This document shows, piece after piece, positions 41,585-47,379 of a stretch of DNA of 64,000 nucleotides. The notes under the pieces are model-generated. The model was not told where the DNA came from, searched no databases, and was given only the letters and a program-made list of their open reading frames with translations. The stretch lies in IMG/VR virus record IMGVR_UViG_3300005259_000074, positions 128,001-192,000 of that record. One strand, written 5' to 3'. A program made the translations under genes and the position numbers. Position 1 is the stretch's first letter. Every line of letters begins with the position of its first letter. Origin of the DNA: a virus (taxonomy: Duplodnaviria; Caudoviricetes).

Positions 41585-41890
41585 TCATAGGTTCGATAAT
41601 TCATTATCTGTTTCATTTGCTATTTCAGCGAGGATTTCTGCGTGGCAATATTTTGGAGAGCACCAACATCCCAAGATCTTGTCTTTCAATTCACATCTTA
41701 CTTTTTCTCTCAGTTCTATGTTCTCATTCAGCCATTTTTTGAACTTGAGGATCACTTCATTCCGATTTCCATCTTTTCCAATCTCGAACGGATTTCCGAA
41801 TGGACTTGGCCGTCCCACATAAACATCATATGTCGTCTTTTTGCAGTGCACGACATACTTAGCGTATTTTCTCTTGGAAGATTTTGACAT
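41585..41890 (-). CDS. DUF4326-like protein
   Basis: VVHCKK..YDVYVGRPSPFGNPF...LGCWCSPKYCHA. Confidence 0.85.
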   Translation of the reverse strand: MSKSSKRKYAKYVVHCKKTTYDVYVGRPSPFGNPFEIGKDGNRNEVILKFKKWLNENIELREKVRCELKDKILGCWCSPKYCHAEILAEIANETDNELSNL

Positions 41891-43996: not shown

Positions 43997-44070
43997 TGGT
44001 ACTCCTTGAGGGTTCGAAACCTCGACCTCTTCCATGTCACGGAAGTGCTCTACAACTGAGCTAAAGGAGC
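43997..44070 (-). tRNA. tRNA-Val(GAC)
   Basis: CTTCC-GT-GAC-AT-GGAAG; CCA; T-arm one nt short. Confidence 0.85.
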
Positions 44071-44501
44071 ATGAGATCGTTCTTGACTGTCCTTCTGATG
44101 TTCTTCCTTATCAGCATGATCATCTTACCTAGTACGTTCTTCCCAGTGCCTTTGCACTGGCTGCAATAACATACTCCCCAGCAGCGGTCGTGCCACGTGT
44201 TGCCTTCTTCGAGGTACTGATCGCCTGTGTCTAGCAACTTCTGCCTCAACACTGGGTCTCTGAACTTGTAGACCAGAAGTCGGTACATCACTCGGTACTT
44301 CTTGACTTCCCAGTCTGGAACCATTGAACAGACTTGACCTGCTCTCTTGGCTTGCCCTGGAGATGGGAGGTGAGCGATGTACTTCCTAGTCGAGGGACTA
44401 GATGCTTTCGCAGCTTGGTAGTAGTGCTCGATAGTCTTTCCGTTCGGGAACTTCGAAAAATTGGAGAGCCAACGAGTGTCGCCGCGAAATTCCTTGATCA
44501 T
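44061..44501 (-). CDS. NADAR (YbiA-like) family protein
   Basis: WLSNF, EHYYQAAK, KFRDP.LRQKLL.TG and EGNTWHDRCWG motifs; ATG at 44501 with GAGGA SD; stop lies inside tRNA-Val(GAC). Confidence 0.85.
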   Translation of the reverse strand: MIKEFRGDTRWLSNFSKFPNGKTIEHYYQAAKASSPSTRKYIAHLPSPGQAKRAGQVCSMVPDWEVKKYRVMYRLLVYKFRDPVLRQKLLDTGDQYLEEGNTWHDRCWGVCYCSQCKGTGKNVLGKMIMLIRKNIRRTVKNDLMLL

Positions 44502-44608
44502 CTCATCCTCTTCGTTTGAATTTTCCCGAGCTCCTTCGCGTCTATCCGGTCCTGGCAGGCGGCGACGTGTAGTGCCGCTCTTCGAGTCGAAGAAGGGACC
44601 CTCGAGAA

Positions 44609-44682
44609 TGGAGCACTGTGGGAATTCTGACATCCCAACTGCAACTTGGGAAGTTGCGGTCTTTCCTTTAGACTAACAGTGC
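44609..44682 (-). tRNA. tRNA-Gly(CCC)
   Basis: GCAAC-TT-CCC-AA-GTTGC; CCA; T-loop GTCAGAA. Confidence 0.85.
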
Positions 44683-45654: not shown

Positions 45655-45671
45655 ATTATTTCTATGAAGAG

Positions 45672-45745
45672 CTCCTGTGGCATGGCTCGAACATGCGACT
45701 TGGAGATTAACAATCTCCCGTTCATACCGACTGAACTACACAGGA
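45672..45745 (-). tRNA. tRNA-Asn(GTT) copy 1, inside a 21-bp perfect inverted repeat
   Basis: GGAGA-TT-GTT-AA-TCTCC; G73; no CCA. Confidence 0.9.
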
Positions 45746-45761
45746 GCTCTTCATAGAAAGT

Positions 45762-45837
45762 TGGCTCACTTGGCTTGATTCGAACAAGCATGTTCAGAGT
45801 TAACAGCTCTGCCTACTGCCAATTGTAGTACAAGTGA
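45762..45837 (-). tRNA. tRNA-Asn(GTT) copy 2
   Basis: CAGAG-CT-GTT-AA-CTCTG; G73; CCA. Confidence 0.9.
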
Positions 45838-45845
45838 ATAAGAAA

Positions 45846-45976
45846 TTAGACTGGTCGCTCTTCCGCTGAGCTATCGTGTACATTCTACTTCGTTAGCTGG
45901 ACTCAGTAGAAGTAGGTCCTCCGCGTGCACTCATCAGACCACTCACGAGTCGGATTTGAACCGACGTCTTCCAGTT
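45846..45976 (-). ncRNA. Circularly permuted tRNA-like module P3
   Basis: 3' half 45976-45941 precedes 5' half 45880-45846; ACCAG/CTGGA and TACACGA/TCGTGAG pairings; 60-nt insert closing the acceptor stem. Confidence 0.75.
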
Positions 45977-46000
45977 GATGGTGTCTCTAGGGCACCTTAA

Positions 46001-46080
46001 TGAGTGCGAGTGTTCTACCATTAAACTACCAGCAAGGTATTTCACTCGCCAGCTTGGAATCGAACCAAGACCTCTCGCTT
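46001..46080 (-). ncRNA. Circularly permuted tRNA-like module P2
   Basis: 3' half 46080-46045, 9-nt linker TGAAATACC, 5' half 46035-46001; CTCGC/GCGAG and TTGCTGG/CTGGCGA pairings. Confidence 0.8.
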
Positions 46081-46114
46081 TGGTGGAACGCCGCTCTTTT
46101 CATAACCGCGCCCC
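46081..46114 (-). ncRNA. Ala-type acceptor microhelix (34 nt)
   Basis: GGGGCGC...GCGTTCC-A-CCA with a G3:U70 pair. Confidence 0.6.
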
Positions 46115-46305
46115 ATAAATGCCTCGACACATTAGCCGCTATGCTACTAGTGCCAACAAATCCACTGAAAAGCATGGTTGTGTTGCAACACAGTTCTCTC
46201 CTAGAAGAGAACGCTCGTCAGTTTCATTGAGGTGTCGAAACGCGGTTGCAATCCGCTTTACGACCTATTGCACAAGTTGGGATTTGAACCCAACTCTTCG
46301 AGGGT
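46115..46305 (-). ncRNA. Circularly permuted tRNA-like module P1
   Basis: 3' half 46305-46269, 115-nt structured insert, 5' half from 46153; TCGAG/CTCGA and GCACTAG/CTTGTGC pairings. Confidence 0.75.
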
Positions 46306-46381
46306 TGGTGGTGTCGGCGGGCAATGATCCCACAACTTTCCGGGTAAGAGCCGGATACTCTGCCAATTGAGTTACGACACC
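46306..46381 (-). tRNA. tRNA-Lys(CTT)
   Basis: TCCGG-CT-CTT-AC-CCGGA; CCA; T-loop ATCATTG. Confidence 0.9.
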
Positions 46382-46388
46382 TTGAATC

Positions 46389-46512
46389 TGGTAACGGACC
46401 TACATTTAGTAGTGCCTCATGGGCTATGTTGCCCAGCGTGCTGCCCCGCCAAATGTTTCTATCCGGGGCGAGGTGACGCAGTGATGGTTCTGCGCCTTTA
46501 CACCATTCCGTA
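46389..46512 (-). ncRNA. 124-nt CCA-ended multi-hairpin RNA (tRNA-like)
   Basis: TACGGA/TCCGTT-A-CCA closing stem enclosing four hairpins. Confidence 0.5.
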
Positions 46513-46520
46513 ATAAACTG

Positions 46521-46588
46521 TAGCGGAGCTGGATTCGATACCAGATCACCAGGTTATGAGCCTAGTATGCTACTTACACCACCCCGCA
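46521..46588 (-). tRNA. Initiator-like tRNA-Met(CAT) with minimal D-loop
   Basis: TGCGGGG/CTCCGCT acceptor with U1:U72 mismatch; CT-CAT-AA loop; no CCA. Confidence 0.75.
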
Positions 46589-46942
46589 TGTTGGTGTCTC
46601 TAGGACACCATAAAGAGTCATCAGTTGACGCTCTCCGAGCGATCATCAGAGGTGGAGAAGTTTCTTAGACAGAGATGAATCTTGACGGGACCATTTGAGT
46701 TGGGTAAAAACCCACGTGAGGTCCTTCGTGGCACATGTCTGTCAGACGCCGGCTGCTCAGCAACCGACATCGCTCCTCCACCTCGGATGACCACTGGAAA
46801 GCGATCACCTGAGAATAATCCTCATTTTCAAAGAACGGTGCATGAGCTTTAGTAGCACGCATATCTCTCAGTCTGTTCAGCTAGCGACTTGCGCCTCTAG
46901 CATCTGAAAGCTCTCGCGACTCATGCTGAGTCCATTTTGTCT
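46589..46942 (-). ncRNA. About 350-nt structured non-coding RNA candidate
   Basis: GAGGTGGAGGAG/CTTCTCCACCTC long-range helix with flanking helices; 12-bp G-U-rich hairpin. Confidence 0.6.
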
Positions 46943-47017
46943 TGGTGCGCTCGGAGAATTTTGAAATCTCGACTCTCTGGTTAAAAGCCAGATACTCTGC
47001 CTCTGAGTTACGAGCGC
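46943..47017 (-). tRNA. tRNA-Lys(TTT)
   Basis: TCTGG-CT-TTT-AA-CCAGA; CCA. Confidence 0.9.
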
Positions 47018-47216: not shown

Positions 47217-47221
47217 AAATG

Positions 47222-47276
47222 TGAATGAGATGTCTCGCGACATACCAGTTGCAAGCAACTGTCTCACTCATATTCA
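47222..47276 (-). ncRNA. Small three-way-junction RNA candidate
   Basis: TGAGA/TCTCA closing stem, CAGTTGC/GCAACTG hairpin and TGTC-GCGA-GACA GNRA hairpin. Confidence 0.4.
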
Positions 47277-47379
47277 ATGATCACCGGCTTCCGATCTCTC
47301 GTCCGCCTAATCCAATTATACACCACGTGGTGAAAATTGTAATAGGACTTTCGAAAAATCTTCGACCTTTCTTTCGAAC

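What the first reader, a model, noticed from the sequence alone, without database searches (positions are those of the whole stretch)
46081..46114. Genomically encoded alanine microhelix
GGGGCGC-GGTTATGAAAAGAGCG-GCGTTCC-A-CCA is a 34-nt hairpin with G3:U70, A73 and CCA. These are the established minimal AlaRS determinants, shown in vitro with microhelices. It sits exactly between P1 and P2. It could be a natural aminoacylated mini-RNA (aminoacyl donor, EF-Tu or toxin decoy) or a CCA-type processing punctuation mark.
Basis: partly seen in the sequence, partly recalled or inferred. Interest (0 to 1): 0.7.

Follow-up and report, generated by a model that had tools for sequence, protein, structure and literature searches.

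The report
Acceptor-stem minihelix punctuating phage tRNA array
A 34-base hairpin that copies the top of an alanine tRNA sits between two 'inside-out' tRNA-like genes in a giant phage's tRNA cluster; it most likely marks where tRNA-processing enzymes cut, and is probably not a natural carrier of alanine.

Summary
The hairpin is real. It lies on the minus strand (46114->46081): a 7-bp stem (G1-C72, G2-C71, G3.U70, G4.U69), a 16-nt loop, then A73 and CCA. It sits in a minus-strand array of more than 20 tRNAs in a 262-kb phage.

It lies between the 5' half of one circularly permuted tRNA-like unit (B) and the 3' half of the next (E). I confirmed those units independently. Cognate halves pair best. 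ARAGORN calls a tRNA only for cognate joins. RNAalifold on this phage plus its only known relative (L048) recovers the permuted cloverleaves with 6 and 5 compensatory pairs.

L048 has a 65%-identical hairpin, also ending in ACCA, in the same slot. Two of its stem pairs changed on both sides, but pair 3 is A-U, not G.U. Alanine identity is therefore not conserved; the helix plus ACCA is. Slots beside permuted units hold either a full tRNA or such a minihelix, each behind the array's usual ..TTAT leader.

Best reading (about 0.5): a tRNA surrogate that lets RNase P and 3'-end enzymes cut out and define neighbouring RNAs. Rivals are an inert deletion relic of a tRNA-Ala gene, or real alanylation. 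No RNA data exist. First-stage notes on this genome say the same, and the scan found permuted tRNA mimics in other phages.

The parts
46081..46114 (-). The minihelix of the finding. The 5' strand is 46114-46108, the loop 46107-46092, the 3' strand 46091-46085, A73 is 46084 and CCA is 46083-46081.
   Evidence: It is the only alanine-type hairpin+ACCA in the genome.
46115..46121 (-). The leader CATTTAT, with U at -1. It is the same ..TTAT/..TCAT motif that precedes most tRNA 5' ends of the array, and it is also the 3' tail of the unit B 5' half.
   Evidence: Inter-tRNA gaps listed. U-1 is predicted to pair with A73.
46122..46153 (-). Unit B 5' half: acceptor 5' strand GCACTAG, D arm GCAT/ATGT, anticodon-stem 5' strand TCGAGG.
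46154..46268 (-). Unit B linker, a 115-nt structured spacer that closes the acceptor stem. Its hairpins are kept through compensatory changes in L048.
46269..46305 (-). Unit B 3' half: AC, anticodon-stem 3' strand CCTCGA, variable loop, T arm TTGGG-TTCAAAT-CCCAA, acceptor 3' strand CTTGTGC, discriminator A. No CCA is encoded.
46306..46381 (-). An ordinary tRNA-Lys(CUU) with encoded ACCA. It occupies the slot upstream of unit B.
46045..46080 (-). Unit E 3' half: AA, GCGAG, AGGT, T arm CTTGG-TTCGATT-CCAAG, acceptor 3' strand CTGGCGA, discriminator G. No CCA is encoded.
45997..46044 (-). Unit E linker (TGAAATACC) and 5' half: TTGCTGG, D arm GTTT/GAAC, CTCGC, and the tail ACTCATTAA.
   Evidence: Absent in L048 and in the X2 contig.
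45976..45996 (-). A second minihelix, GGTGCC-CTAGA-GACACC-A-TCA. Its stem is the acceptor stem of tRNA-Lys(CUU). It lies between unit E and unit F.
45838..45975 (-). Unit F: 3' half (45975-45941), 60-nt linker, 5' half (45880-45850) and tail (45849-45838). It is followed by tRNA-Asn.
   Evidence: A wastewater contig of an ordinary tRNA-Thr(CGU)-like gene matches both halves in 'go-back' order.
46593..46609 (-). A paralogous copy of the Lys-type minihelix, GGTGTC-CTAGA-GACACC, followed by AACAT and a CCA-less tRNA-Met-like gene (46521-46588).
   Evidence: Identical in L048.

Best explanation
The hairpin is a tRNA surrogate: an acceptor-stem minihelix, probably descended from a phage tRNA-Ala gene that lost its anticodon and T arms. 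It is kept in the polycistronic tRNA transcript as a processing punctuation mark.

The proposed mechanism is inferred, not observed. RNase P would recognise the helix with G+1, U-1 and the 3' ACCA, and cut at 46115|46114. That cut would create the 3'-OH end of the upstream permuted tRNA-like unit B. The 3'-end machinery that matures CCA-encoding tRNAs would cut or trim to the CCA at 46081, freeing the 5' end of the downstream unit E two bases before its anticodon-type stem. The 34-nt minihelix would itself be a by-product.

Its alanine identity set (G3.U70, A73) would then be a legacy of ancestry, or chance, and not the selected feature.
For: 1. Grammar of the array. The slots flanking the permuted units hold either a full CCA-ending tRNA or a minihelix: tRNA-Lys | B | minihelix | E | minihelix | F | tRNA-Asn. 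Each slot element starts right after the array's usual ..TTAT leader and ends 0-2 nt before the next unit's stem.

2. All sequence features that matter for bacterial RNase P on minimal hairpin substrates are present: a helix, U at -1, G+1 and 3' RCCA. pMini3bp cleavage relies on the N-1/A248 and RCCA-RPR contacts, and U-1/A73 is cleaved well (PMC3874170; PMC12710915 abstract).

3. Conservation of form and not of identity. L048 carries GGAGTC-19 nt-GACTCC-A-CCA at the same slot (L048:3002-3036). It is about 65% identical to our hairpin, has a similar free energy (-15.1 against -15.3 kcal/mol with leader; z = -3.4), and its stem pairs 5 and 6 changed on both sides. Pair 3 is A-U.

4. The neighbours are real structured RNAs that need defined ends.
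- The cognate 5' half ranks first among 32 (ours) or 21 (L048) acceptor strands. In one of the five tests (our 3' half B) it ties with tRNA-Thr(GGU) at 6 Watson-Crick pairs.
- ARAGORN calls a tRNA only for cognate joins.
- RNAalifold recovers the permuted cloverleaves de novo, with 6 (B) and 5 (F) pairs changed on both sides.

5. No terminator-like site lies on the minus strand between 47474 and 45114, so the region is probably one transcript.

6. Ancestry. The ends GGGGC...GTTCCACCA are identical to those of L048's tRNA-Ala(CGC) (L048:3654-3726), and AGAGC matches its D-stem 3' strand. Our own tRNA-Ala(UGC) has GGGCGCA/TGCGTCC-ACCA.
Against: - No RNA ends, cleavage or transcript data could be obtained.
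- Only one relative exists, so the covariation in the minihelix rests on two sequences and on an alignment of 34-35 nt.
- The Lys-type minihelices have ACA or TCA tails instead of CCA, so RCCA is not universal in the class.
- The copy at 46593-46609 is followed 5 nt later by a tRNA whose own RNase P site could do the job, so that minihelix looks dispensable.
- A 7-bp helix with a floppy 16-nt loop is a much poorer RNase P substrate than a full tRNA.
- Unit E plus one minihelix is an indel between the two phages, so this part of the array is not essential.
- A hairpin left by internal deletion of a tRNA gene would pair without any selection.
Confidence: 0.5

Rival explanations
1. Inert relic. 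A tRNA-Ala gene suffered an internal deletion of roughly positions 27-65. The two acceptor strands and CCA that remain still pair simply because they always did, and the element has no function of its own.
For: - The hairpin resembles phage tRNA-Ala ends and the D-stem 3' strand.
- The region is an indel hot spot: unit E and a minihelix are missing in L048 and in the X2 contig.
- The array holds many odd or degenerate tRNAs.
- The pattern is not significant genome-wide.
Against: - L048's slot partner differs at about a third of its positions yet keeps a perfect 6-bp stem, ACCA and the leader, with two pairs changed on both sides.
- At least three different minihelices all keep exactly the acceptor stem and lose everything else.
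- All of them sit in register with the leader motif.
Confidence: 0.27
2. A genuinely alanylated mini-RNA. Once released with a CCA end, the hairpin is charged by the host AlaRS and acts as Ala-minihelix, for example as an aminoacyl donor, a sink for EF-Tu, or a decoy for toxins that attack acceptor ends.
For: - G3.U70, A73, G2-C71 and an encoded CCA are all present.
- E. coli microhelix-Ala is charged by AlaRS, and charging depends on G3:U70 (PMC10036535).
- L048's tRNA-Ala(CGC) also carries the G4.U69 pair, so this stem is a native alanine stem in this phage group.
Against: - The homologue in L048 has A3-U70.
- The sister minihelices have a Lys-type stem and no CCA.
- The phage has no AlaRS of its own.
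- By my estimate, given a G1-C72/G2-C71 hairpin with RCCA, a G.U at pair 3 together with A73 arises by chance in roughly 1 case in 12.
- No RNA evidence exists.
Confidence: 0.07
3. End-setter for re-joining. The minihelix exists so that RNase P and the CCA-end cut leave a 3'-OH and a 5'-phosphate in the open 'anticodon loop' of the permuted units. The phage RNA ligase then seals these ends to give circular intermediates and finally real tRNAs, as with the permuted tRNA genes of Cyanidioschyzon.
For: - The units have 7-bp acceptor stems, canonical D and T loops, and lack an encoded CCA.
- The phage encodes RtcB with an adjacent ATP-dependent RNA ligase, a second ligase, and a CCA-adding enzyme.
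- Joining the unit B halves at exactly those ends gives a 76-nt cloverleaf.
Against: - The joined loops are not anticodon loops. For B they are 9 nt here and 8 nt in L048. For E the loop is 11 nt, and for F about 12 nt. Their 5' parts are just the generic ..TTAT pre-tRNA leader.
- There is no splicing endonuclease.
- Ligases of this kind are common in large phages.
Confidence: 0.1
4. The signal belongs to the plus strand and is a weak intrinsic terminator (TGGTGGAACGCCG followed by CTCTTTTCAT).
For: The consensus scan lists two overlapping terminator-like sites at 46081-46095 on the plus strand.
Against: - The stem has 5 bp, 3 of them G-C, and a 3-4-nt loop.
- No plus-strand ORF of at least 100 aa lies between 43955 and 48039.
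- The whole region is a minus-strand tRNA array.
- The scan finds such sites at 2.3 +/- 1.4 per shuffle.
Confidence: 0.02

Closest known systems
Model hairpin substrates of bacterial RNase P (pMini3bp and pATSer type), and natural hairpin substrates such as precursor 4.5S RNA
   Same: A short helix with a 5' leader, U at -1, G at +1 and a 3' RCCA. Cleavage depends on the -1/A248 and RCCA-P15 contacts (PMC3874170; PMC12710915).
   Different: Those are laboratory constructs or unrelated cellular RNAs. This one is genomically encoded inside a phage tRNA array, between two permuted tRNA-like units. Cleavage here is untested.
Microhelix-Ala and minihelix-Ala (the Schimmel-type AlaRS substrates)
   Same: A 7-bp acceptor stem with G3.U70, A73 and CCA, which is the minimal alanine identity set (PMC10036535; PMC8583063 abstract).
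   Different: It has a natural 16-nt loop with remnants of a D arm, and an extra G4.U69 pair. The identity pair is not conserved in the relative, so alanylation is unlikely to be the selected role.
tRNA punctuation and tRNA-like processing signals (mitochondrial punctuation model; the MALAT1 mascRNA-type tRNA-like 3'-end signal). This comparison is from my own knowledge.
   Same: A tRNA-shaped element is used only so that RNase P and RNase Z cut a long transcript at defined places.
   Different: Here the element is reduced to the acceptor helix alone. The RNAs it would delimit are themselves permuted tRNA look-alikes.
YrlA-type Y RNAs (Rfam RF02553), the bacterial and phage tRNA mimics. This comparison is for the neighbouring units, not the hairpin.
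   Same: The arm order is T arm, acceptor-like stem closed by a loop, then D arm, with the RNA ends on the anticodon side. M. smegmatis YrlA has a 7-bp acceptor stem, is cut by RNase P and receives CCA (PMC4201824).
   Different: The units do not score with the YrlA model; the best hits, at 20 bits or less, lie elsewhere. There is no Ro60/TROVE gene and no long Ro-binding stem. Three different units lie in tandem, separated by minihelices.
Circularly permuted tRNA genes of Cyanidioschyzon merolae and some archaea. This comparison is from my own knowledge; only passing mentions were found in the library.
   Same: The 3' half is encoded upstream of the 5' half, the break falls in the anticodon-loop region, and a linker joins the acceptor ends.
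   Different: There is no BHB/EndA system. The joined loops are non-canonical. The setting is bacterial-viral. The full-text search returned no paper on permuted tRNA genes in bacteriophages.

Membership tests
tRNA gene (Rfam RF00005 / ARAGORN cloverleaf) | A cloverleaf with D, anticodon and T arms. | tested here: not met
   There is no hit at 46081-46114, even at E<=10 or at lowered ARAGORN thresholds. The element is 34 nt and has only the acceptor stem.
AlaRS microhelix substrate | A G3.U70 wobble pair in a 7-bp acceptor helix. | tested here: met
   The sequence and fold show it. The homologous hairpin in L048 has A3-U70.
AlaRS microhelix substrate | A73 discriminator, a G2-C71 pair and a single-stranded 3' CCA. 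| tested here: met
   The CCA is encoded, as in 23 of the 29 ARAGORN tRNAs of the genome.
AlaRS microhelix substrate | It is released as a discrete RNA and charged with alanine. | not testable with these tools
   No RNA run holds the stretch.
Minimal RNase P hairpin substrate | A helix with G+1, a pyrimidine at -1 and a 3' RCCA. | tested here: met
   The sequence is ..CATTTAU|GGGGCGC...GCGUUCC-ACCA. The criteria come from PMC3874170.
Minimal RNase P hairpin substrate | It is cleaved at -1/+1 by RNase P. | not testable with these tools
   This needs an in vitro assay or end mapping.
Rho-independent terminator | A G+C-rich hairpin followed by a U run on the transcribed strand. | tested here: not met
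   On the minus strand the hairpin is followed by ACCAAAGCGAG. Only a marginal plus-strand match exists.
tmRNA tRNA-like domain | A G3.U70 acceptor stem joined to a T arm, with a tag reading frame. | tested here: not met
   ARAGORN -m finds no tmRNA in the genome. The T arm downstream belongs to unit E, whose acceptor strands pair with each other.
YrlA (RF02553), for the flanking units | A score at or above the 69-bit gathering threshold, and an adjacent Ro60/TROVE gene. | tested here: not met
   The best hit is 20 bits and falls on a junction between two ordinary tRNAs. No TROVE domain was found.
Permuted tRNA gene, for the flanking units | The 3' half lies upstream of the 5' half, with the acceptor, D, T and anticodon stems all formed across the permutation. 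| tested here: met
   Compensatory changes at B 3:70, 6:67 and 7:66 and at F 4:69.
Permuted tRNA gene, for the flanking units | Joining the halves restores a canonical 7-nt anticodon loop; a BHB motif and splicing endonuclease are present. | tested here: not met
   The loops are 8-12 nt and vary between relatives. No EndA was found.

The most novel reading that the evidence does not exclude
The minihelices are the end-defining parts of a bacterial-virus pathway for permuted tRNAs. RNase P and the CCA-end cut at the minihelix would leave ligatable ends. The phage RNA ligase or RtcB would then close the permuted units into circles that are re-opened at the acceptor end. That would give functional, possibly unusual tRNAs or charged tRNA mimics. 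It would be the first such pathway outside eukaryotic algae and archaea.
Probability: 0.1. Interest if true: 0.85.

Novelty: new variant of a known kind. Interest (0 to 1): 0.5.

Why it matters
If the reading is right, this phage has pared a tRNA down to the least that the processing enzymes need. It uses that piece as a spacer to cut out a row of inside-out tRNA look-alikes. That would be a natural counterpart of the minimal RNase P and AlaRS substrates so far known only from test tubes.

It would also give a handle on how permuted tRNA-like RNAs get their ends in bacteria, which have no tRNA-splicing endonuclease. Finally, it warns against reading G3.U70 plus ACCA as proof of alanylation, because the one relative shows that the identity pair is free to change.

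Tried and rejected
Searches for relatives
- The pattern GGGGCGC-N10-22-GCGTTCCACCA in viral contigs gave 44 hits. By my estimate that is about the chance number, and none came from a related array.
- Exact-pattern scans for unit B, the linker and unit F in viral, metagenome and genome collections found nothing, or three chance hits without BLAST similarity.
- Protein-anchored searches gave only L048. I used the NADAR protein, the baseplate protein and a 130-aa array ORF. The locus of the next-closest NADAR homologue (L049) has no tRNAs.
- blastn against GenBank phages found no match. The baseplate protein has only matches of 28% identity or less to cyanophages, Vibrio phages and Streptomyces phages.

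RNA evidence
- No listed run holds the stretch as RNA. The runs that were laid gave only contigs of a relative and of unrelated tRNA clusters. This says nothing about expression.

Other families and enzymes
- Rfam at E<=10 finds no ribozyme or other family in 45700-47000.
- A CUGAUGA (ours) or CUGAAGA (L048) hammerhead-like box in the unit F linker was considered and dropped. There is no conserved GAAA or matching stems, and no Rfam hit.
- The T4 Rnl1 family search returned nothing, but its control also returned nothing, so it is uninformative.
- Archease is absent.

Unit E
- Reading unit E's 5' half with unit F's 3' half as one intron-containing tRNA was rejected. ARAGORN finds it only at a lowered threshold and Rfam scores it at 26 bits, below its threshold. 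Its acceptor strands pair poorly, with 2 Watson-Crick and 3 G.U pairs, against 7 of 7 for the permuted partner.

Full report
WHAT IS THERE

The window is bases 128001-192000 of a 262,470-bp virus record. Its baseplate protein has only remote matches of 28% identity or less to cyanophages, Vibrio phages and Streptomyces phages.

The finding lies on the minus strand. Read from 46114 down to 46081, the sequence is GGGGCGC-GGTTATGAAAAGAGCG-GCGTTCC-A-CCA. All 20 ARAGORN tRNAs and 19 Rfam tRNA hits of the window are on the same strand, between 41.9 and 47.5 kb. A second array lies at 253-255 kb of the genome.

The hairpin folds as described: MFE -14.8 kcal/mol, z = -2.8, and no shuffle of 200 folds as well. 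It also forms in 131 nt of context. No tRNA or RNA-family program calls it.

IS IT MORE THAN CHANCE?

A hairpin of 7 bp or more followed by NCCA is common. There are 133 in the genome, and shuffles give 99-149.

The alanine-type version (GGG..., 7 paired positions...TCC-ACCA) occurs once, at this site, against 0.25 per shuffled genome. The motif alone is therefore not significant. Its position is: it lies inside a 5.5-kb tRNA array, on the tRNA strand, directly behind the ..TTAT leader that precedes most tRNAs of the array.

Its ends, GGGGC...GTTCCACCA, are identical to the ends of the tRNA-Ala(CGC) of the relative L048 (L048:3654-3726). That tRNA also has G4.U69, and its AGAGC matches the D-stem 3' strand position. 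The phage's own tRNA-Ala(UGC) has GGGCGCA/TGCGTCC-ACCA. The simplest origin is a tRNA-Ala gene that lost roughly positions 27-65. I hold this at about 0.6.

THE SURROUNDINGS

The 468-nt gap between tRNA-Lys(CUU) and tRNA-Asn (45838-46305) contains three canonical T arms that belong to no called tRNA. Each T arm is part of a tRNA 3' half that lies upstream of a matching 5' half. On the minus strand the order is:

- tRNA-Lys-ACCA
- 3' half of B, a 115-nt linker, 5' half of B
- the hairpin of the finding
- 3' half of E, a 9-nt linker, 5' half of E
- a second minihelix, GGTGCC-CTAGA-GACACC-A-TCA
- 3' half of F, a 60-nt linker, 5' half of F
- tRNA-Asn

I tested this arrangement in four ways.

1. 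Acceptor-strand ranking. Among all acceptor 5' strands of the genome (32) and of L048 (21), the cognate downstream half is the best partner of each upstream 3' half in all five tests. In one of them (our 3' half B) it ties with tRNA-Thr(GGU) at 6 Watson-Crick pairs. Unrelated strands reach 6 pairs in 3-5% of cases and never reach 7.

2. In-silico joins. ARAGORN at default settings calls a tRNA only when cognate halves are joined (B+B, E+E and B+B of L048). It never does so for the 'normal order' combinations.

3. A close relative. Contig L048 (10.7 kb; its NADAR protein is 92% identical) has the same layout for B and F. Between the two phages:
- The B acceptor stem changes from GCACTAG/CTTGTGC to GCGCTGA/TCAGCGC. 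Pairs 3:70, 6:67 and 7:66 change on both sides, and a U.U becomes U-A.
- F changes at 4:69.
- Both D stems change at 13:22.

4. De novo folding. RNAalifold, given only the two sequences, predicts the permuted cloverleaves, with 6 (B) and 5 (F) pairs changed on both sides.

In addition, a wastewater contig carrying an ordinary tRNA-Thr(CGU)-like gene matches both F halves in 'go-back' order. This shows that the two halves descend from one tRNA type.

The units lack an encoded CCA, whereas 23 of the 29 ARAGORN tRNAs of the genome carry it. Joined at the ends that the flanking elements would define, their 'anticodon loops' are 8-12 nt long. They differ in length between the two phages, and their 5' part is simply the generic ..TTAT leader. 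I therefore read them as permuted tRNA-like RNAs and not as decoding tRNAs.

Their arm order is that of YrlA Y RNAs (PMC4201824). However, the YrlA model does not score them, and the phage has no TROVE/Ro60 gene and no splicing endonuclease.

THE HAIRPIN IN THE RELATIVE

In L048, unit E and the Lys-type minihelix are absent. A 1950-nt contig of run X2 shows the same: it skips 45986-46124 and has 33 other bases in their place.

The slot between B and F is filled there by GGAGTC-AACTTCTCGAAGAGAACGG-GACTCC-A-CCA (L048:3002-3036). It stands behind the same CATTAT leader and directly in front of F's stem. It is about 65% identical to our hairpin; the flanks are about 89% identical. With leader it folds at -15.1 kcal/mol (z = -3.4) against -15.3 for ours.

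Taking the two as orthologues, the stem pairs compare as follows:
- Pairs 5 and 6 changed on both sides (C-G to U-A, G-C to C-G).
- Pair 4 went from G.U to G-C.
- Pair 3 is A-U instead of G.U.

What is kept is a helix of tRNA-top size, the leader with U-1, G+1 and the ACCA. What is not kept is the alanine identity pair.

The other two minihelices of our phage (45976-45996 and 46593-46609) are paralogues of each other. They carry the acceptor stem of tRNA-Lys(CUU) and have TCA or ACA in place of CCA. LysRS needs the anticodon (my own knowledge), so these cannot be charging substrates.

MECHANISM PROPOSED

Every step here is inferred. The array is probably one transcript, because no minus-strand terminator-like site lies between 47474 and 45114.

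RNase P would cut 5' of every tRNA and, by the same rules, 5' of the minihelix. Short hairpins with U-1, G+1 and 3' RCCA are cleaved by bacterial RNase P through the -1/A248 and RCCA-P15 contacts (PMC3874170; PMC12710915). The enzymes that mature CCA-encoding tRNAs would then define the minihelix's 3' end.

The two cuts would free the 3' end of unit B and the 5' end of unit E, 7 and 2 nt from their closing stems. A slot holding a full tRNA (Lys, Asn) would do the same job. The minihelix is the cheapest element that still does it.

This accounts for four observations: only the acceptor helix survives; the stem co-varies; the loop and the identity pair drift; and the class tolerates different stems.

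WHAT THE PHAGE COULD DO WITH SUCH ENDS

The genome encodes four relevant proteins:
- RtcB (373 bits).
- Directly beside it, an ATP-dependent RNA ligase with a PHA02142 OB domain.
- A second RNA ligase.
- A CCA-adding-type nucleotidyltransferase.

RNase P-type ends (3'-OH and 5'-P) suit the ATP-dependent ligase, by my own knowledge of the chemistry. Re-ligation of the permuted units is therefore possible. The non-canonical loops argue against it, and I give it 0.1.

ALANYLATION

The determinants are all present, and microhelix-Ala is a proven in vitro substrate that depends on G3:U70 (PMC10036535). If the 34-mer accumulates with a free CCA, it may well be charged incidentally.

A selected role is unlikely for four reasons. 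L048 has A3-U70. The sister hairpins are not alanine-like. The phage has no AlaRS. And given a G1-C72/G2-C71 hairpin with RCCA, the remaining identity features (G.U at pair 3, A at 73) have a chance probability near 0.08 by my estimate.

LIMITS

- Only two lineages are known, despite eleven searches.
- No RNA data could be laid on the site.
- The orthology of the two hairpins rests on a short alignment. If L048's hairpin is instead orthologous to the Lys-type minihelix, there is still one pair changed on both sides (A-U against U-A at pair 3).

EARLIER NOTES OF THE SCAN

After my own analysis I found that first-stage notes on this genome list the three permuted units and the 'CCA-tailed minihelices'. 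Follow-ups on other phages had found YrlA-like permuted tRNA mimics. I tested the YrlA reading here, and it is not met.

VERDICT

- Observation: confirmed.
- Alanine-carrier reading: not supported by conservation.
- Punctuation reading: best supported (0.5).
- Inert relic: second (0.27).

Noticed in passing
window 45838-46305 (minus strand): Three tandem circularly permuted tRNA-like units (B, E, F), each with its 3' half upstream of its 5' half. B and F are conserved in L048 with compensatory changes in the acceptor, D and linker helices. No CCA is encoded. Their T loops are canonical, whereas many ordinary tRNAs of the array have unusual T loops.
   Followed up: yes
window 45655-45761 (minus strand): The second tRNA-Asn (45671-45745) is flanked by the inverted repeat TTTCTATGAAGAGC / GCTCTTCATAGAAA. 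This extends its acceptor stem by 14 bp into a helix of about 21 bp. It has no CCA.
   Followed up: no
window 46617-46942 and 47217-47379 (minus strand): The inter-tRNA gaps hold non-tRNA sequence that is about 89% conserved in L048. Some hairpins are kept through compensatory changes, for example CAGTTGC/GCAACTG against CGGTTGC/GCAACCG. They are likely structured RNAs of unknown kind.
   Followed up: partly
genome 24879-27004 (outside the window; loci L050, L055): An RNA-repair-type cassette: RtcB (409 aa) directly followed by an RNA ligase with a PHA02142 OB domain (335 aa). A second RNA_ligase-domain ORF lies at 246934-247383, and a CCA-adding-type nucleotidyltransferase at about 1475-1834.
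   Followed up: partly
genome 253249-254708 (second tRNA array, outside the window): Several tRNAs are missed by ARAGORN. By eye they include an Arg(CCU) and an Arg(CCG) with odd T loops, and two tRNAs with a reduced D arm and a long variable arm that carry UCU and UAU anticodons. All end in ACCA.
   Followed up: no
L048:3654-3726: The relative's tRNA-Ala(CGC), with G3.U70 and G4.U69, is not called by ARAGORN. L048 also has a TnpB/Cas12f-like IS gene (240-1424) just upstream of the array.
   Followed up: no
window 44061-44633 and 41585-41890 (minus strand): Protein genes are interspersed in the tRNA array: a NADAR-domain protein and a DUF4326 protein. Both are conserved in L048.
   Followed up: partly
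(protein P0058): The longest contig on record that carries this phage's 130-aa array ORF is 313,637 nt, longer than the 262-kb virus record. The original assembly may therefore include host flanks, which would fit the 'provirus' label.
   Followed up: no
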